Positions 23,493 through 29,514 are shown, counted from the first letter of the stretch. The stretch: 64,000 nucleotides of DNA from Candidatus Bipolaricaulota bacterium (GCA_035528115.1 DATKZF010000001.1:160312-224311); one strand, 5' to 3'. Notes: generated by a model from the letters alone, not told the origin. Made by a program: numbers and translations.

Positions 23493-23753
23493 TCACTCGC
23501 CTTTTATTTCAAGCAAGCTCCAATAATTTTCTTTACCCGTCGCTTTTTCTATTTTAATTTCAGCGCCATCGGCCAACGTGCCTTCGTTTAACATCGTTAA
23601 GTTAAACCTAAGATTCTCAGGGGAAATATCTTGTCCATGCTCTCGAATAAACCCCAATTCAACGGAGATTTCACTCACCTTTCGGCAATTGTTTTCAGCG
23701 GCTTTCTCTAAAACCAATTTATGAATTTTATCGGCCAGATGAAGATCGTGCAT
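23493..23753 (-). CDS. HypA-like hydrogenase nickel-insertion protein that lacks the C-terminal Zn finger
   Basis: Starts MHDLHLADKI (the MHE Ni-binding N-terminus). It aligns to HypA up to about residue 75 and then ends, with no CxxC...CxxC. It sits directly downstream of hydA. Confidence 0.5.
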   Translation of the reverse strand: MHDLHLADKIHKLVLEKAAENNCRKVSEISVELGFIREHGQDISPENLRFNLTMLNEGTLADGAEIKIEKATGKENYWSLLEIKGE

Positions 23754-23754
23754 A

Positions 23755-25017
23755 TTAATGAGTCGCGCAAGAGATGCATGGATCATAAGCCCGAATCAAG
23801 GACTTGATCAAACTCTCTCTTTTTTTATCCGAAAAATTTTGTAAAGTCGGCAAAAATACTTTCAAATCTTTTTCCAAATTGGCGATAAACAAAGCGGTCG
23901 GCGTGACGATGTCGCATTTTCTCACCGCGCCGTAATCGTCAAAATCGAAATTGTAATACAATAAACCTCGCGGCGCTTCAATCACGGACAGACCGCGGCC
24001 GGCAGCGGGTTTGACGGAGACCTTCAATTTTTTATTTCTTATTTTCAAATATTTTTCAATCAATTTGCCGCATTCTTCCAAACAATGAATAATCTCGATC
24101 GACTGCGCCAAGACATTATGAAACGGATTATAATCGGGCGTTTCAATGCCGAGCTCATCCCAATTTTTTTTCGCGATGCCGTTTAATTTGTCATAATTGC
24201 AATTTATTCTAGCCAAAGATCCGCACATGACCGCTCGCCCGAGATGATGAGATCTTTTGACCGCCTCCCCGGACGAATTGGTTTCCGAAACCTCGGCATA
24301 AAATTGATCCGCGCTTACTTTTCTTTTGTTATCAAGAAAAAAGACTTCTCCATCATAAATCGCGTATTCTTTCCCTGATTTCAAGGCGACGTAATTGGAA
24401 GGATTTTTAAAATTGGTAATCTTTTGTTTTTTCAAAAAATCAAACAGTTTCACGGCCTGTTTCGTTTTGACGGGGATTATCTCCGCCAATTCCTTAAGCG
24501 AATTCTCGTCCGGCGCGACGTTAAATCCTCCGACCACGCTGTTTATCGGATGGATCGTCCGACCGCCGATTATTTTCGCGGCCAAAACCCCAAAATCTCT
24601 GACTTCGAGCGCGTATTTCGACTGTTCGGGATATTTCTTCACCAAATCCGTGTTATTGGAAACGCCGACAAAATCGGGGAACGATAAAAAAAACATGTGC
24701 AAAGCGTGGCTGTGAATTATCTGAGCCAATTCCAGGATTTTTCGGAGCAAAATTATTTCCGGAGTAATTTCGGTAAAAAAAGCGTTTTCAATCGCCTTGA
24801 TCGCGCCAAGATTGTGAACGATCGGGCAAACGCCGCAAATTCTCGAAACGATAACCGGCAATTGCTGATAAGGCCGGCCAATGACCATGCCTTCAAAAAG
24901 ACGGGCGCCTTCTTCCGTGATCAGCCTGGCCTCGGCCGCTTCTCCGCCGAGCAGGCTGCCGACAAAACTCGAGTGCCCTTCGGTCTTGGCGATGTGGTTT
25001 ATTTTAATGGTTTTCAT
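23755..25017 (-). CDS. NiFe hydrogenase large (alpha) subunit, group 3b type
   Basis: N-terminal RICGVCPIVH and C-terminal DPCISCATH Ni-Fe ligand motifs. Likely start MKTIKINHIAKTEGH. Confidence 0.88.
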   Translation of the reverse strand: MKTIKINHIAKTEGHSSFVGSLLGGEAAEARLITEEGARLFEGMVIGRPYQQLPVIVSRICGVCPIVHNLGAIKAIENAFFTEITPEIILLRKILELAQIIHSHALHMFFLSFPDFVGVSNNTDLVKKYPEQSKYALEVRDFGVLAAKIIGGRTIHPINSVVGGFNVAPDENSLKELAEIIPVKTKQAVKLFDFLKKQKITNFKNPSNYVALKSGKEYAIYDGEVFFLDNKRKVSADQFYAEVSETNSSGEAVKRSHHLGRAVMCGSLARINCNYDKLNGIAKKNWDELGIETPDYNPFHNVLAQSIEIIHCLEECGKLIEKYLKIRNKKLKVSVKPAAGRGLSVIEAPRGLLYYNFDFDDYGAVRKCDIVTPTALFIANLEKDLKVFLPTLQNFSDKKRESLIKSLIRAYDPCISCATH

Positions 25018-25209
25018 ATTTAGTTTGACAAATTCAGATTTAACTGATAATATCAAAGCACGCTTCGAGAAAATGACAAGTCCTGATCCGTGCATACATG
25101 TCGCTACCCTCCCGTTGTGTCGACAACTCTTTCCGTCTTTTCTCGAAGCGTCCTTGACCTCTCTGAGACCGACTTTGCATGCACCGTCGGTCTCTTTTTT
25201 TTTTAAATT

Positions 25210-25956
25210 TTACAAATAATCTTTCATGCCAAATACTTCCAGCGCTTGCTCTATTTCTTTAATTGAATGATTCTTTTTTAAAAATTTCATTAAATTTTCA
25301 ACTTCCGCGTCTTTTATCAAACCGCGACACCCCCAGCAACCTTGCTTGCTTTTCAGACAAACGGCGTTGCAACCGGTCTGCGTTATGGGTCCCAAACAAA
25401 TTTCGCCCTTCTGCAAAACGCATTCATAACCCAGGCGCTGGCAATCGTAACAAATCGTTTTCTGCGCTATTTTCGGTAATCTACCCGCTTCAATGTCATA
25501 AAGCATGGAAAAAAACTCATCAACGTCTATCGGACAAGTCGGCACGTCAAAATCAACGCGAACATAATCTCTGACCGGCAAAACATCCGGATTTTCTATT
25601 CCTTCGGGCTTATCGTAAATTTTTTTGATCAATTTGAGCTTATCGCCGTAATTTTTCAAATGATAAATGCCTCCAAAATGCGCGCAAGTCCCGAGCGTCG
25701 CCAGATAGCGGCTATTTTTCCTGACAATTTTCAATTGCTCGATATTTGCATTGGTGATCGGACTGCCTTCGACAAAAACAATATCGAATTTTTTCTCGGA
25801 CAAATCTTCTTCTTCCCTCCATAAACGAAAAAACTCCCAATCAAAATGATTCAACGACTTCAAATATTTTTCCTTGGAATCCAAAATGGCAAAACAGCAG
25901 CCTTCGCAGGATGTCAAAGACAAAATGCCTATTTTAAATTTGGAATTTTTTTTCAT
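25210..25956 (-). CDS. NiFe hydrogenase small (delta) subunit
   Basis: CEGCCFAILD...GTCAHFGG Fe-S ligands (Nuo 20-kDa-like). Confidence 0.85.
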   Translation of the reverse strand: MKKNSKFKIGILSLTSCEGCCFAILDSKEKYLKSLNHFDWEFFRLWREEEDLSEKKFDIVFVEGSPITNANIEQLKIVRKNSRYLATLGTCAHFGGIYHLKNYGDKLKLIKKIYDKPEGIENPDVLPVRDYVRVDFDVPTCPIDVDEFFSMLYDIEAGRLPKIAQKTICYDCQRLGYECVLQKGEICLGPITQTGCNAVCLKSKQGCWGCRGLIKDAEVENLMKFLKKNHSIKEIEQALEVFGMKDYL

Positions 25957-26444
25957 ATTTTCAGATTCGAGGAGGCTATCGCGTTTTTAACTGCTGCGGC
26001 CAATTGATCCGCATTGTCCGAAGTGATGAAATAATCAGGTTGATTTTCAATTTTCAATCTGACGCCATTGCCGGATCTAGCCACATACCCTCGGGATCGG
26101 TCTCGGCCGATTCTGATGCCGTAGCCCAAATATGTCTGCCATTTATATTCATCGACTTTAACATCCTCGATTTCTTCGAGTTTTATTTTTCTTTTTAACA
26201 ATCCATAGCCGACAATCATATTTTCATCGGTTACCGTGACGCTCAAACGTCTAAAATTGACGAACACGAAACCATCCAGCAAAAAAACGAACACCATAAC
26301 CAAATTGGCAAAATCGGGCGCTTCGCTCACCGAATCAGCTCGATAAGATGAAACAAAGCAATAGCCGATGACAATCAAAACCGCAAACACCAAAAGCGTT
26401 CCAATCGGCGAAAAGCTTTGCTTTTCTTCATGTAAAATATTCAT
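25953..26444 (-). CDS. Membrane protein with two TM helices and a bacterial-PH-like (YdbT/DUF304-like) domain, inserted inside the hydrogenase operon
   Basis: 163 aa. Two N-terminal TM helices, then a beta-rich segment (VTVTDENMIVGYGLLKRKIKLEEIEDVKV) typical of bPH domains. It overlaps hydD by 4 nt. Confidence 0.5.
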   Translation of the reverse strand: MNILHEEKQSFSPIGTLLVFAVLIVIGYCFVSSYRADSVSEAPDFANLVMVFVFLLDGFVFVNFRRLSVTVTDENMIVGYGLLKRKIKLEEIEDVKVDEYKWQTYLGYGIRIGRDRSRGYVARSGNGVRLKIENQPDYFITSDNADQLAAAVKNAIASSNLKI

Positions 26445-26450
26445 AATTTT

Positions 26451-27266
26451 CTAAAACGGTTTATATATCGAAGTCACTCCGTCCAATTCCGCCAAACTGA
26501 ATACCGGCCCGTCTTGGCAGATATATTTCGAACCGATGGCGCAATGCTGGCACACGCCTTGGCCGCAGTACATTCGTTTTTCCAGGCTGAGATAAATACT
26601 TTCGGGAGATATTTTTTTTGCCAGCAATTTTTTAACCACCGCCTTGTACATAACCGGCGGACCGACAACGAAAAACAAGGCATCATCAACCAAATCTTTA
26701 TTTAAAAGATCACTGACAAAACCGCTTTTGGGAGAATACTTCGGCAGTCTTCCCTTTTCCAAAATCAAATTCAAATCGTAATTTTTTTGCCACTCGGCAA
26801 AACTATTTTTAAAATACAGAGTATCTTTGCTCGAGCAACCGATAAAAATTTGTTTTTCCATTTCTTGGCGATCCGAGTAATATTCTATTATCGAACGCAA
26901 AGGCGCGAAGCCGCAACCGCCTCCTATCAGAATCAAATTTTTATCAATCGCCTCGGGGAAACCGTTGCCGAAAGGCCCCCTCACCAGCATAAAATCGTTT
27001 ATCTTGAGCGAAATCAATTTTTTGGTAATTCTGCCAATGCCGCGGATCGTTAACTCAAAATAATCCCCGGCTTCTTTGGGATTGGAACACAAACTTATCG
27101 GCGCTTCGCGCCAACCCATCAGGCCGACTTGCATGAATTGCCCGGGCAAAAATTCGAAAGCTTTCTGGCCGTCCGCCGGCAATTTCAAACGAAACAAAAC
27201 AGTGTCCGCGTTCTGCTCTTCCCGACCGATGATTTTGGCTTTTTCCGGTTTATACGCGTTTCTCAT
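26451..27266 (-). CDS. Hydrogenase gamma subunit (FAD/NAD-binding, 2Fe-2S; PyrK-like)
   Basis: GGCGFAPLRS NAD-binding motif and a C-terminal CGQGVCQHCAIG... cluster. Confidence 0.8.
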   Translation of the reverse strand: MRNAYKPEKAKIIGREEQNADTVLFRLKLPADGQKAFEFLPGQFMQVGLMGWREAPISLCSNPKEAGDYFELTIRGIGRITKKLISLKINDFMLVRGPFGNGFPEAIDKNLILIGGGCGFAPLRSIIEYYSDRQEMEKQIFIGCSSKDTLYFKNSFAEWQKNYDLNLILEKGRLPKYSPKSGFVSDLLNKDLVDDALFFVVGPPVMYKAVVKKLLAKKISPESIYLSLEKRMYCGQGVCQHCAIGSKYICQDGPVFSLAELDGVTSIYKPF

Positions 27267-27267
27267 T

Positions 27268-28284
27268 TTATTTTCTTAGGTTTTTAAAATTTTCCGCTAT
27301 GCTGATGCCCACCGGACAAGCCTGAAAACATCTCATGCAACCGACGCAACCGGGAAATTTGTATTCGTCCGTCATTCTGACGAATTTATGATAATACCAA
27401 TAATATAATTTTTCCGCGGCGTGTCTCATGTCGTTTTCGCCATTGGTTATTTTCGTGAATTCCGGATAAAAGCAAGACGACCATTTTCTTTTTCTGGAAA
27501 TAACATCTCCGTCCGCGACATCTTCATGCTCGAAACAAAAACAAAGCGGGCAGACGAGAGAACATTTGCCGCAAGCCAGACAAATTTTGCCCAGCTCTTG
27601 CCAGAGCTTATCCTCGGGCTTGGACTTGAAAATCAATTCCCTGTTTTTTAAAACAAATTCCTTATTCGGCCCTTCTTCGGGGATCGGCCCGGCGTATTCG
27701 ATATTCATATAATCACTGATACCGTTTTCCTCCAGTATTTGCTGGCCTTTTTCCGAGCCGCTGAAAATTTTCAAATTTTTGTTTTTTTGCTCTTCAATGA
27801 AAATATCGAAATTCAAATGTTCAAGCTTATCCTCCCTGAATTTTTCATGAAAAATTTTATATTTCCGATAATCCTGCGGCAGACCGGCGCTGTAGCCGAT
27901 AAGTAAAGTCTTGGCTCGTCGCTTTTGATAATAAACGTCTTCGGAAAAAATCGCTTCCAGATAAGTCAGGGCCTGCAAATCCAAAATATTTATTCCAAAA
28001 ATCACTCTGGATTTTTTTTCAAATATCTCGCAAAGCCCTTTTTCATCTTGTTTTAATATTTCTTCCGTTGAGGGCAACAGCAAATGCTTGAAGCTTTGCT
28101 TGGGCAATTTCCATGACCAATCCATTTCCTTGATGTCCGAGATCTCAACCACCGCGATATCATCATCGATTTTTCGGGGCGCGAAAAAAACATTTTTTTT
28201 CAGCAAACAAAGCAATAATTGATTGAGAGCGCTTTTTGTCATATTAAAATCATTATAACACAAAAACCGGCGGATAAAAAACAA
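27268..28284 (-). CDS. Hydrogenase beta subunit (4Fe-4S ferredoxin-like)
   Basis: CLACGKCSLVCPLC and CVGCMRCFQACPVG ferredoxin motifs. Confidence 0.8.
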   Translation of the reverse strand: MFFIRRFLCYNDFNMTKSALNQLLLCLLKKNVFFAPRKIDDDIAVVEISDIKEMDWSWKLPKQSFKHLLLPSTEEILKQDEKGLCEIFEKKSRVIFGINILDLQALTYLEAIFSEDVYYQKRRAKTLLIGYSAGLPQDYRKYKIFHEKFREDKLEHLNFDIFIEEQKNKNLKIFSGSEKGQQILEENGISDYMNIEYAGPIPEEGPNKEFVLKNRELIFKSKPEDKLWQELGKICLACGKCSLVCPLCFCFEHEDVADGDVISRKRKWSSCFYPEFTKITNGENDMRHAAEKLYYWYYHKFVRMTDEYKFPGCVGCMRCFQACPVGISIAENFKNLRK

Positions 28285-28328
28285 AAAATCCCCAAGGAAT
28301 CGGGGATTTTTATAATTCTTGTTTATGT

Positions 28329-28934
28329 TTATTTGGCGTCAATCACGAAGGTGGCGATAATACCCGGGACTTCATCCATTCTCTTTTCCATTTCAGCGTT
28401 GGCCGTGGATTGCGCGCGATCCCAAGTGAATATATGTTGCGAATTTTCAGTGATATAAACCGGTTTCGGCCCTTCGGCGTCTTTTTGGATATCCCACTGA
28501 TCATGAGTAAAAATCGTTATGGCGAACAATCCGTCTTTTTGCGCGGGCAAACCGAAATAAAAAGATGGCGCTGAGCCGACCTGCCAGGAGGTGTTCTTTT
28601 CCACGAGATTATACTCTTTCCACTCCGCGGGCAAAGTCAAACCGAAACCGTATTCAGAATTATAATAATCTATTTCCTCCTCGATCATCGCCTCCGCTGT
28701 CGCTTCCTCCGCAACCGGTTCATTAATGACCTCCGCCTCGATTTCATTGGCTATCTCATTCTCATTTTCCAACCAATCCTCCAAGGAACGAGCGTCATTT
28801 TGCGATTTTAAGTAATAAAACAGCAGCCCCAGTCCGGAGAGCAGGACAATTAATAAAACTATCAAAAGAATCAAAAGCCCATTGGTTACTTTCGGACTTG
28901 GCATATTTGGCGATGTTATCGGATCTTCCGGCAT
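28329..28934 (-). CDS. Hypothetical N-terminally anchored protein
   Basis: 201 aa with a TM helix after a Pro-rich N-terminus, an acidic linker, and a globular C-terminus. Confidence 0.5.
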   Translation of the reverse strand: MPEDPITSPNMPSPKVTNGLLILLIVLLIVLLSGLGLLFYYLKSQNDARSLEDWLENENEIANEIEAEVINEPVAEEATAEAMIEEEIDYYNSEYGFGLTLPAEWKEYNLVEKNTSWQVGSAPSFYFGLPAQKDGLFAITIFTHDQWDIQKDAEGPKPVYITENSQHIFTWDRAQSTANAEMEKRMDEVPGIIATFVIDAK

Positions 28935-29031: not shown

Positions 29032-29514
29032 TTATTTAATTTCCAATTCAGTCTTTTCCACAATGCGCAATTCATATCGAGGCGCCACCAAAAGTCCGAT
29101 AAACAAACCTGAAATCAAGAAAATCAACAAACTGGCCAATGTCCACCACATTATCAAGCCAAAAGGAATATTAAGCAATAAAACAAAGGTCAACATGCTG
29201 GATATGCCCGCGACAAGGAACATCAACAGCCCGAAAAGAAGTCCCCTTTTCGCGCCGCTGCCGGGCACGGCGCTGCCCAGCAAATAAAACACGAAGACCG
29301 CGATAATCGCGCTCGCCAATTGGGATAAGACGGAATAAACCATAAAACTGGCCGGCGGCGGTCCGGCCTCGGGCATCATTAATTTGGACCATAGACCAAA
29401 GTAAGCTTCGTCCATGTAATAACTCATAGAAAATTGAGCGATTACCGTCTGAATCAGCTCGGCCACGATCACCATGATAATGACCGCCAATAAAGCCTTC
29501 CAAAAATTTTTCAT
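29032..29514 (-). CDS. Hypothetical polytopic membrane protein
   Basis: 160 aa with about 4 TM helices. Confidence 0.5.
   Translation of the reverse strand: MKNFWKALLAVIIMVIVAELIQTVIAQFSMSYYMDEAYFGLWSKLMMPEAGPPPASFMVYSVLSQLASAIIAVFVFYLLGSAVPGSGAKRGLLFGLLMFLVAGISSMLTFVLLLNIPFGLIMWWTLASLLIFLISGLFIGLLVAPRYELRIVEKTELEIK

What the first reader, a model, noticed from the sequence alone, without database searches (positions are those of the whole stretch)
23493..28284. Group 3b NiFe hydrogenase operon with a Zn-finger-less HypA and a bacterial-PH membrane protein inserted between subunits
The beta, gamma, delta and alpha subunits (27268-28284, 26451-27266, 25210-25956, 23755-25017) are canonical. 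Two details are not. A 163-aa protein with two TM helices and a bPH-like domain (25953-26444) is translationally coupled between gamma and delta. The only maturation factor present is an 86-aa HypA that keeps the MHD N-terminal Ni site but ends before the CxxC...CxxC zinc finger. No hypB/C/D/E/F or endopeptidase is in the window.
Basis: partly seen in the sequence, partly recalled or inferred. Interest (0 to 1): 0.5.

Follow-up and report, generated by a model that had tools for sequence, protein, structure and literature searches.

The report
Streamlined CPR hydrogenase operon, zinc-less HypA
This is a real four-subunit nickel-iron hydrogenase operon from a tiny-genome (Patescibacteria/CPR) bacterium; its odd features (a one-domain nickel chaperone with no zinc finger, a catalytic subunit needing no final protease cut, and a small membrane protein before the small-subunit gene) are conserved across the lineage and are not assembly errors.

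Summary
On the minus strand, 23493-28284 encodes beta, gamma, a 163-aa membrane protein ("X"), delta, alpha and an 86-aa HypA. It matches the Patescibacteria "hyd1" group 3b [NiFe]-hydrogenase of Jaffe et al. 2020.

- **HypA.** The short HypA is not a frameshift. Only 38 bp separate it from an intact pgk. All 73 distinct homologues are 83-101 aa and none has a CxxC motif. M1-H2-D3 is invariant and His39 is kept in 72 of 73. The predicted fold matches only HypA structures.
- **Endopeptidase.** Its absence is explained. This alpha subunit and 81 related ones end exactly at the His of DPCxxCxxH, so there is no tail to cleave.
- **Other Hyp genes.** No HypB-like gene appears in any locus. HypC/D/E/F sit beside the hydrogenase in other CPR clades but not in this window. 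Whether they lie elsewhere in this genome is unresolved.
- **Protein X.** It has two transmembrane helices and a confident PH fold. Pfam bPH hits are sub-threshold. It directly precedes delta in 33 of 67 distinct homologues. Its relatives also occur without any hydrogenase (CaCA-X-pgk), so its role is inferred only.

Verdict: a new variant of a known kind, of moderate interest.

The parts
27268..28242 (-). Beta subunit (HydB/ShyB-like, two 4Fe-4S motifs). The mechanical ORF begins at a TTG at 28284; the likely start is the ATG at 28242.
   Evidence: Pfam Fer4_22 E = 3.9e-26; NCBIfam sulfhyd_HydB/ShyB. Relatives are 323 aa.
26451..27266 (-). Gamma subunit (FAD/NAD(P)-binding, 2Fe-2S).
   Evidence: FAD_binding_6, NAD_binding_1 and DHODB_Fe-S_bind; NCBIfam PRK08345 and ShyC.
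25953..26444 (-). Protein X, 163 aa: an N-terminal strand, two transmembrane helices (residues 13-35 and 44-63) and a PH-fold domain that is inferred to face the cytoplasm. It overlaps the delta start by 4 nt.
25210..25956 (-). Delta (small) subunit.
   Evidence: Oxidored_q6 E = 2.8e-18; NCBIfam ShyD E = 4e-44.
25018..25209 (.). A 192-bp spacer between delta and alpha. On the + strand it carries a near-consensus promoter-like site (25025-25053) and a hairpin followed by T10 (about 25165-25205). This may be a small antisense RNA unit or a structured mRNA spacer. The same slot holds variable inserts in relatives (YibE/F, NUDIX, or 1.4 kb with no called gene or long ORF).
   Evidence: The fold of 25058-25206 (+) gives -45.8 kcal/mol, z = -5.3.
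23755..25017 (-). Alpha (large, catalytic) subunit, 420 aa. It has the L1 motif RICGVCPIVH and the L2 motif DPCISCATH, and it ends at that His with no C-terminal extension.
23493..23753 (-). Mini-HypA, 86 aa. It consists of the nickel-binding domain only, with the MHD N-terminus and conserved His39. It has no zinc site.
   Evidence: Pfam HypA. PDB profile hit to T. kodakarensis HypA, E = 1.3e-8. AF2 pLDDT 88.9, with the top 14 Foldseek hits all HypA. 73 distinct homologues.
28284..28311 (.). A terminator-like hairpin, readable on both strands, between the upstream 201-aa membrane protein gene and beta. It marks the likely 5' boundary of the operon.

Best explanation
The locus is a Patescibacteria (CPR) 'hyd1'-type group 3b [NiFe]-hydrogenase operon, in the order beta-gamma-X-delta-alpha-HypA. 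It encodes a cytoplasmic NAD(P)-linked, sulfhydrogenase-like enzyme with a lineage-specific, pared-down nickel-insertion step.

Shown:
- The catalytic subunit keeps all four Cys ligands but ends exactly at the His that is normally the cleavage site. No maturation endopeptidase is therefore needed.
- The gene after alpha encodes a single-domain HypA. It keeps the Ni-domain fold and an invariant Met1-His2-Asp3, and it has no zinc site at all.
- This short form is the only HypA next to these hydrogenases in 73 distinct sequences, and no HypB-like NTPase is nearby in any locus.
- X is a two-helix membrane protein with a PH-fold domain. Within one monophyletic hydrogenase subclade it is fixed immediately upstream of the small-subunit gene.

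Inferred:
- Mini-HypA binds Ni through its N-terminus together with the near-invariant His39 loop. In several lineages that loop expands into a His-rich stretch.
- Mini-HypA hands Ni directly to the alpha subunit without HypB, and without a proteolytic checkpoint.
- The PH domain of X faces the cytoplasm, by the positive-inside rule.
- X may tether or organise the small subunit, or the whole enzyme, at the membrane. I give this about 0.25 on its own.
- The Fe(CN)2CO unit is presumably still made by HypCDEF encoded elsewhere in the genome. This was not verified.
For: Operon identity:
- Pfam, NCBIfam and PDB matches to sulfhydrogenase subunits.
- The closest relatives are all Patescibacteria MAGs with the same synteny, DinB ... 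beta-gamma-X-delta-alpha-HypA-pgk-SIMPL-eno.
- Jaffe et al. 2020 (PMC7304191) describe this CPR-specific four-subunit 'hyd1' clade.

No C-terminal extension:
- All 82 complete alpha ORFs end at DPCxxCxxH.
- The P. furiosus sulfhydrogenase I alpha chains in the PDB are 428 aa and 424 aa, the latter ending at the aligned His. I read these as precursor and mature form.
- E. coli HycI found nothing in the window plus 85 loci.

Mini-HypA:
- 38 bp separate it from an intact pgk.
- 73 distinct sequences are 83-101 aa. MHD is present in 73/73 and H39 in 72/73. None has CxxC, and 66 of 73 have no Cys at all.
- His-rich loop variants occur, for example LAHDGHDEHVED and VPHNHKHAHEHDNH.
- AF2 pLDDT is 88.9, and the top 14 Foldseek hits (E up to 1.6e-3) are all HypA.
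- The profile hit to T. kodakarensis HypA has E = 1.3e-8.

No HypB: phmmer and P-loop motif scans were empty in all loci.

Protein X:
- Family members give weak hits to bPH_4/5/6/8 and DUF3093.
- The X-to-delta adjacency holds in 33 of 67 distinct homologues. All 27 with HMM E < 1e-47 are hydrogenase-linked.
- X-bearing hydrogenases form one clade in the alpha tree.
Against: - No experiment exists for any CPR hydrogenase.
- HypC/D/E/F were not found in the 64-kb window, in about 7.5 kb beyond its right end, or within 7 kb either side of alpha (10 kb either side of HypA for L001 and L003) in X-clade relatives. The enzyme could therefore be unmaturable in this lineage. I could not read the rest of the genome.
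- The Ni role of His39 is inferred from conservation only.
- X relatives at similar divergence occur in CPR genomes with no hydrogenase, as CaCA-X-pgk in L093, L105/L106, L118-L120 and L125. More distant relatives sit next to flavodoxin genes in non-CPR bacteria. X is thus not an obligate hydrogenase component.
- One member of the X clade (L015) has a PDDEXK_3 gene in place of X.
- The operon is a hotspot for unrelated inserts such as NUDIX, PDDEXK_3 and YibE/F. This makes mere passenger status plausible for X.
Confidence: 0.7

Rival explanations
1. X is a passenger. It is a generic small bPH-type membrane protein that already lived next to pgk and a CaCA transporter in this lineage, and the hydrogenase genes came to lie around it. 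It has no role in the hydrogenase. Its fixed position before delta reflects operon inertia and translational coupling only.
For: - CPR loci without hydrogenase keep CaCA-X-pgk-eno (L093, L105/L106, L118-L120, L125).
- L092 and L108 have gamma-CaCA-CbiM-PDGLE-X-delta.
- The family has 482 representative clusters, and most of the distant ones are not hydrogenase-linked.
- L015 lacks X although its hydrogenase is otherwise intact.
- Many unrelated genes are inserted in these operons.
Against: - The X-to-delta adjacency persists in 33 distinct sequences down to about 27-30% identity. It persists even where other genes separate gamma from X (L092, L100, L103, L108, L114).
- The genes often overlap at start and stop.
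- The variable inserts elsewhere in the operon turn over quickly, whereas X does not.
Confidence: 0.4
2. The operon is a decaying or non-functional relic. Without HypB, HypC, HypD, HypE, HypF and a complete HypA, the NiFe(CN)2CO cofactor cannot be made, and the short HypA is a degenerate remnant.
For: No HypB/C/D/E/F was found in the window or in X-clade loci. Genome reduction is typical of CPR (Jaffe 2020, PMC7304191).
Against: - All metal-ligand motifs in alpha are intact in 82 of 82 sequences.
- All six ORFs are intact and conserved at 27-66% identity (X 27-45%, alpha 53-66%) across species-level genomes in the same order.
- Mini-HypA has invariant functional residues across 73 sequences and a confident fold. 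This is the opposite of decay.
- Other CPR clades with the same mini-HypA do carry HypC/D/E/F next to the hydrogenase. The short HypA therefore coexists with a working Fe-cofactor pathway.
Confidence: 0.12
3. The short HypA is an assembly or frameshift artefact of a normal two-domain HypA.
For: None beyond its unusual length.
Against: - Only 38 bp lie between its stop and the start of intact pgk.
- The same 83-101 aa form is seen in 73 distinct sequences from independent assemblies, with no CxxC anywhere.
Confidence: 0.01

Closest known systems
Pyrococcus furiosus / Thermococcus kodakarensis soluble sulfhydrogenase (group 3b, SHI / Hyh; PDB 9e15, 9nez, 5yxy)
   Same: The same four subunit types (alpha, beta, gamma, delta). 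Alpha aligns end to end (E = 1e-62) with the L1 and L2 Cys motifs. Gamma has FAD/NAD(P) and 2Fe-2S domains, and beta has two 4Fe-4S motifs.
   Different: The archaeal alpha chain is deposited as 428 aa and 424 aa forms. I read the 4-residue tail after the His as the cleaved extension. Here the gene ends at the His. The archaeal enzymes use a two-domain HypA with an ATPase-type HypB (review PMC12134894). Here HypA has one domain, no HypB is nearby, and a membrane protein gene is embedded in the operon.
CPR 'hyd1' group 3b hydrogenase clade (Jaffe et al. 2020, BMC Biol 18:69, PMC7304191)
   Same: A Patescibacteria-specific clade with large, small, gamma-like and beta-like subunits. The paper notes that gamma and beta are sometimes not immediately upstream of the small subunit, and that a chaperone-like family lies nearby.
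   Different: The sections I read do not describe the zinc-less HypA, the extension-less alpha or the PH-fold membrane protein. They call the nearby chaperone family hypC-like.
Canonical HypA / HybF nickel metallochaperone (PF01155; PDB 3a43, 5aun, 5yxy, 6g81)
   Same: N-terminal Met-His-acidic motif, the Ni-domain alpha/beta fold, and a gene position next to hydrogenase genes.
   Different: The four-Cys zinc domain is absent. The protein ends after a hairpin that aligns to the first knuckle region of T. kodakarensis HypA, without the cysteines. There is a 4-residue or longer insertion carrying conserved His39. All NCBIfam HypA models score far below their cut-offs.
Large subunits that naturally lack a C-terminal extension (H2 sensors such as HoxC, and Ech/CooH-type enzymes; from my own knowledge, not checked here)
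   Same: The polypeptide ends at or near the last ligand motif, so no endopeptidase is required.
   Different: Those belong to groups 2b and 4. Here the trait is in a group 3b clade whose archaeal relatives carry a short tail after the His.
Bacterial PH (bPH) membrane proteins such as YdbS/YdbT and SunI (Pfam bPH_2, bPH_5, bPH_8)
   Same: Two N-terminal transmembrane helices followed by a PH-fold domain, and a small size.
   Different: No Pfam bPH model reaches its gathering score. The family has its own conserved Y-x-G-Y-G-I-R-x-G-R-D motif. I know of no bPH protein reported in a hydrogenase operon.

Membership tests
Group 3b [NiFe]-hydrogenase | Large subunit with the L1 (RxCGxCxxxH) and L2 (DPCxxCxxH) NiFe-ligand motifs | tested here: met
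   RICGVCPIVH and DPCISCATH are present. Both motifs are present in 82 of 82 relatives.
Group 3b [NiFe]-hydrogenase | Closest characterised relatives are sulfhydrogenase/Hyh alpha rather than other groups | tested here: met
   NCBIfam HydA/ShyA give E = 1e-67 and 4e-64, against VhuA at 3e-46 and FrhA at 2e-40. The top PDB hits are P. furiosus SHI and T. kodakarensis HyhL. All hits are below the equivalog cut-offs, so this is a divergent subclade.
Group 3b [NiFe]-hydrogenase | Four-subunit module: small subunit plus an AsrA-like FeS beta and an AsrB-like FAD/NAD(P) gamma | tested here: met
Group 3b [NiFe]-hydrogenase | H2/NAD(P)H or sulfur-reducing activity | not testable with these tools
   No biochemical data are available.
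HypA nickel metallochaperone (PF01155) | N-terminal Met-His-Glu/Asp nickel motif | tested here: met
   MHD in 73 of 73 sequences.
HypA nickel metallochaperone (PF01155) | Ni-domain fold | tested here: met
   AF2 pLDDT 88.9. The top 14 Foldseek PDB hits (E up to 1.6e-3) are all HypA, with TM-score (query-normalised) 0.67-0.82. This rests on a predicted structure, not a solved one.
HypA nickel metallochaperone (PF01155) | Zinc domain with two CxxC pairs | tested here: not met
   No CxxC in any of 73 sequences, and 66 have no Cys at all. The Pfam match stops at profile position 69 of 112.
HypA nickel metallochaperone (PF01155) | Works with a HypB NTPase partner | tested here: inconclusive
   No HypB-like gene was found in the window or in the other hydrogenase loci fetched. 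Whole genomes could not be searched.
HypA nickel metallochaperone (PF01155) | Binds Ni and delivers it to the large subunit | not testable with these tools
   Inferred only, from the gene's position after alpha in about 70 loci and from the conserved residues.
Bacterial PH domain proteins (Pfam PH clan, bPH_1-8) | PH superfold (seven-stranded sandwich capped by a C-terminal helix) | tested here: met
Bacterial PH domain proteins (Pfam PH clan, bPH_1-8) | Significant match to a curated bPH profile | tested here: not met
   The best hit is bPH_5 at 18.5 bits against a cut-off of 22.5, E = 0.002. Among 60 family members there are scattered weak hits to bPH_4, bPH_5, bPH_6, bPH_8 and DUF3093.
CPR hyd1 clade (Jaffe et al. 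2020) | Patescibacterial large subunit co-located with small, gamma-like and beta-like subunits | tested here: met
   Most of the 80 nearest genomic loci are Patescibacteria MAGs by record title; seven are labelled Actinomycetes or Thermoleophilia, and other non-CPR labels look like mislabels. The window clade carries the beta-gamma-delta-alpha-HypA pattern. I did not place the sequence in the paper's own tree.

The most novel reading that the evidence does not exclude
Patescibacterial group 3b hydrogenases are matured by a minimal nickel route unlike the HypA-HypB-protease scheme regarded as universal. In this reading, a single-domain, cysteine-free HypA with a His loop acts alone, with no NTPase and no proteolytic checkpoint. 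In the X subclade the membrane-anchored PH protein couples the enzyme, through its small subunit, to the membrane or to a cation/nickel import site. That lineage may even lack HypCDEF and depend on a host or on unknown factors for the Fe(CN)2CO unit. DUF6390 fills the same operon slot in sister clades.
Probability: 0.15. Interest if true: 0.75.

Novelty: new variant of a known kind. Interest (0 to 1): 0.45.

Why it matters
A 2025 review (PMC12134894) presents [NiFe]-hydrogenase maturation as a conserved pipeline. [quoted passage not shown]

A whole bacterial radiation appears to depart from that scheme. It has a one-domain HypA, no zinc site, no nearby HypB and no cleavable tail. That defines a natural minimal system. 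It could show which parts of HypA are truly needed for nickel delivery, and it could simplify heterologous production of NAD(P)-linked hydrogenases.

It also bears on whether CPR hydrogenases, which are widely used to infer H2 metabolism in these uncultured bacteria, are really functional. The PH-fold membrane protein fixed before the small-subunit gene is a testable lead for how a 'soluble' hydrogenase might be organised at the membrane.

Tried and rejected
- **Frameshift or truncated HypA:** rejected.
- **Zinc-finger remnant downstream:** impossible, since only 38 bp precede intact pgk.
- **Word-indexed homology search for X:** it found only X itself. This was misleading, because syntenic loci and an exhaustive phmmer search showed a large family.
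- **Metagenome scan with the 60-sequence X alignment:** I repeated it with 10 sequences.
- **Spacer between delta and alpha as a remnant of the YibE/F gene seen in L003/L007:** no tblastn or blastn similarity. Rfam found no family in the operon or in the L006 gap.
- **Locating HypD on the window's own contig:** I searched with a CPR HypD and looked for the contig-length fingerprint (266,694 bp). None of the 120 hits listed matched, and the test is weak. The one Kuenenbacteria HypD I examined belongs to a hyd2-type locus.
- **Walking beyond the window:** the left end failed because there was no exact protein match. The right end added ribosomal and glycosyltransferase genes only.
- **AlphaFold-database fold search for zinc-less HypA outside CPR:** the library was unavailable.
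- **Literature:** searches for a zinc-less HypA, CPR hyp genes or a bPH-hydrogenase link returned nothing relevant.

Full report
**1. What is in the sequence**

Six ORFs lie head to tail on the minus strand of 23493-28284.

| Gene | Coordinates | Evidence |
|---|---|---|
| beta | 27268-28284 | Pfam Fer4_22; NCBIfam sulfhydrogenase HydB/ShyB |
| gamma | 26451-27266 | FAD_binding_6, NAD_binding_1, DHODB_Fe-S_bind |
| X (163 aa) | 25953-26444 | see section 4 |
| delta | 25210-25956 | Oxidored_q6; ShyD |
| alpha | 23755-25017 | NiFeSe_Hases; HydA/ShyA E = 1e-67 and 4e-64 |
| HypA (86 aa) | 23493-23753 | Pfam HypA, profile positions 1-69 of 112, E = 4.6e-10, above the gathering score |

The best solved relatives of alpha are P. 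furiosus sulfhydrogenase I and T. kodakarensis HyhL (E = 1e-62 and 6e-61, aligned end to end).

The beta ORF starts mechanically at a TTG. The ATG at 28242 gives 324 aa, matching the 323 aa of relatives.

The junctions are tight:
- beta to gamma: 1 nt
- gamma to X: 6 nt
- X to delta: a 4-nt ATGA overlap
- alpha to HypA: 1 nt

The exception is delta to alpha, separated by 192 bp.

The rest of the window looks like a Patescibacteria/CPR genome: ATP synthase, two iPGM genes, enolase, pgk, LexA, DinB and mraZ/W. All close relatives of the locus are Patescibacteria MAGs. A few carry evidently wrong taxon labels.

**2. The short HypA is real and clade-wide**

Only 38 bp separate the HypA stop from the start of an intact 407-aa pgk. 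No zinc-finger remnant can be hidden downstream.

A word-indexed search found 11 clusters of 84-94 aa. I then fetched 80 genomic loci around relatives of alpha and searched their ORFs with profiles built from this operon. Nearly every locus has a short HypA after alpha.

Over all loci there are 73 distinct sequences:
- They are 83-101 aa long.
- All start with MHD.
- G34 and N47 are invariant, and His39 is kept in 72 of 73.
- None has a CxxC, and 66 have no cysteine at all.

The AlphaFold model (pLDDT 88.9) is helix-strand-helix-hairpin. Its top 14 Foldseek PDB hits (E up to 1.6e-3) are all HypA structures. A profile of the family hits T. kodakarensis HypA at E = 1.3e-8.

In that alignment the terminal hairpin lies over the first Cys-knuckle region of the archaeal protein, with the cysteines replaced. 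The His39 loop is a 4-residue insertion relative to the archaeal protein.

In several lineages the loop expands into His-rich stretches:
- LAHDGHDEHVED in Moranbacteria-type loci
- VPHNHKHAHEHDNH in L051
- PEHAHACDGGRGHDE in L068

I infer, without proof, that Ni is bound by the N-terminus together with this loop.

The 2025 review PMC12134894 describes HypA as having a zinc domain. It says the HypA-HypB pair appears conserved throughout evolution. My literature searches found no description of a zinc-less form.

**3. Why there is no endopeptidase, and what about the other Hyp proteins**

Alpha ends ...DPCISCATH followed by the stop codon. All 82 complete alpha ORFs in the fetched loci likewise end at the His of DPCxxCxxH, and all have the L1 motif.

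The P. furiosus chains in the PDB are 428 aa and 424 aa, the latter ending at the aligned His. I read these as precursor and mature form. This clade therefore has nothing to cleave.

The searches for other maturation genes gave these results:
- E. coli HycI and HypB found nothing in the window or in 85 loci.
- P-loop motif scans for G3E-type and Mrp/MinD-type HypB were also empty.
- HypC, HypD, HypE and HypF do exist in CPR. They sit next to two-subunit (hyd2-like) hydrogenases in many loci, and hundreds of CPR HypD clusters exist.
- HypC alone sits between gamma and delta in sister four-subunit clades.
- None is in this window, in about 7.5 kb beyond its right end, or within 7 kb either side of alpha (10 kb either side of HypA for L001 and L003) in the X-bearing relatives.

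Whether this genome encodes HypCDEF elsewhere is the main open point. I could not read the rest of the 266,694-bp contig or the other contigs of the MAG.

**4. The inserted membrane protein X**

Pfam gives only sub-threshold bPH hits: bPH_5 E = 0.002, then bPH_4, bPH_2 and bPH_8.

The word-indexed search found only X itself. Two other lines of evidence showed this was misleading:
- Syntenic loci L001 and L003 carry 37-38% identical proteins in the same slot.
- An exhaustive phmmer search found 482 representative clusters, mostly 150-170 aa.

With 66 of these as an alignment, AlphaFold gives pLDDT 95.1. The model has an N-terminal strand, two transmembrane helices (13-35 and 44-63), then a seven-strand sandwich with a C-terminal helix.

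The family has its own conserved motif, Y-x-G-Y-G-I-R-x-G-R-D-x-S-x-G-Y.

*Genomic context.* Among 67 distinct homologues from genomic and metagenomic loci, 33 lie immediately upstream of delta and 23 immediately downstream of gamma. All 27 with HMM E < 1e-47 are hydrogenase-linked. The X-to-delta adjacency survives even where other genes separate gamma from X (L092, L100, L103, L108, L114).

In a neighbour-joining tree of alpha, the X-bearing loci form one clade, with one outlier (L100). They show the pattern beta-gamma-X-delta-alpha-HypA-pgk. Sister clades carry HypC, an EamA transporter and DUF6390 between gamma and delta instead.

*Evidence against a dedicated role.*
- CPR loci with no hydrogenase keep CaCA-X-pgk-eno (L093, L105/L106, L118-L120, L125).
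- More distant, non-CPR relatives sit between a flavodoxin-like gene and an MBL-fold gene.
- L015, inside the X clade, has a PDDEXK_3 gene in place of X.
- L092 and L108 have gamma-CaCA-CbiM-PDGLE-X-delta, which places X beside a Ni/Co uptake component.

I therefore rate a membrane-tether or organiser role toward the small subunit at about 0.25. I rate passenger status, or a partnership with a transporter, at about 0.4.

**5. Other structure in the operon**

The delta-to-alpha slot is variable among relatives:
- a YibE/F membrane protein in L003/L007
- a NUDIX hydrolase in six loci
- 1.4 kb with no called gene or long ORF in L001/L006

In the window this slot is 192 bp. On the opposite strand it holds the best promoter-like site of the region (TTGACA-17-TAATAT with an upstream TG, 25025-25053). 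About 150 nt further on is a 9-bp GC-rich hairpin followed by T10. That stretch folds with z = -5.3.

It has no Rfam match and no similarity to other loci. It may be a small antisense RNA or just a structured spacer. I did not resolve this.

**6. Comparison and verdict**

The operon belongs to the CPR-specific four-subunit 'hyd1' clade of group 3b hydrogenases described by Jaffe et al. 2020 (PMC7304191). The sections of that paper I read do not mention the zinc-less HypA, the extension-less alpha or the PH-fold protein.

The enzyme itself is a known kind. The maturation set is a distinct variant: a one-domain HypA, no nearby HypB and no protease substrate. X is a lineage-specific addition of unproven relevance.

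- **Novelty:** a new variant of a known kind.
- **Interest:** moderate (0.45). The variant is a documented, clade-wide exception to a scheme thought universal, and it is directly testable. It rests on genomics of uncultured organisms, and the key question of HypCDEF elsewhere in the genome remains open.

Noticed in passing
window 25018-25209 (+ strand unit about 25025-25206): The spacer between delta and alpha carries, antisense to the operon, a near-consensus sigma-70-like promoter (TTGACA-17-TAATAT with TG). About 150 nt follow that fold strongly (-45.8 kcal/mol, z = -5.3) and end in a hairpin plus T10. There is no Rfam family and no similarity to other loci. It could be a small antisense RNA.
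   Followed up: partly
L006 5565-7000 (= L001 7296-8731): In the closest relative the same delta-to-alpha slot is 1.4 kb with no ORF of 70 aa or more. It holds several promoter-like and hairpin-plus-A/T-run units that look like small opposite-strand transcription units. It is not a YibE/F pseudogene by tblastn.
   Followed up: partly
L020, L024, L029, L049, L055, L064 and others, between gamma and delta: Sister CPR four-subunit hydrogenase operons carry a recurring cassette where the window has X. It consists of HypC, an EamA-family transporter and DUF6390 (conserved LGxCGP cysteine motif). DUF6390 also directly precedes delta in L005. It may be an unrecognised hydrogenase accessory factor.
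   Followed up: partly
L034, L041, L042, L046, L048, L051, L057, L063, L076 (minus strand, upstream of the hydrogenase): HypF-like genes of only about 380-430 aa align solely to E. coli HypF residues about 390-736, the C-terminal domain. They lack the N-terminal roughly 390 residues, which in E. coli HypF hold the acylphosphatase, zinc-finger and YrdC-like domains (domain assignment from memory). Full-length HypF occurs in L021 and L058.
   Followed up: partly
L092 2910-4986 and L108 1079-3217: A CaCA (Na/Ca-exchanger family) gene, a CbiM/NikM-type Ni/Co uptake component and a PDGLE-domain protein lie between gamma and X inside the hydrogenase operon. CaCA-X adjacency also occurs in CPR loci that lack any hydrogenase.
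   Followed up: partly
L008 6565-7014, L011 6515-6997, L013 3398-3754, L117, L123, L124: A NUDIX hydrolase gene recurs between delta and alpha in the X-bearing clade. L008 and L009 also have a four-helix-bundle ORF between alpha and HypA that looks to me like the proteins encoded in 23S rRNA intervening sequences. PDDEXK_3 genes are inserted in L001/L006 and L015. These operons are insertion hotspots.
   Followed up: no
window 28284-28311: A 10-12 bp hairpin flanked by A and T runs, terminator-like on both strands, lies between the upstream 201-aa membrane protein gene and beta. This leaves very little room for an operon promoter downstream of it.
   Followed up: no
window 28329-28934 and 29032-29514: Two membrane protein genes with no Pfam match (201 aa and 160 aa) lie upstream of beta. 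They are syntenic in L001 and L003 (225/214 aa and 160 aa), between DinB and the hydrogenase operon.
   Followed up: no
L067, L074, L075, L077, L078: Four-subunit relatives labelled Actinomycetes (L067) or Thermoleophilia (the others) share the extension-less alpha ending at DPCxxCxxH. They have no mini-HypA in the fetched flanks.
   Followed up: no
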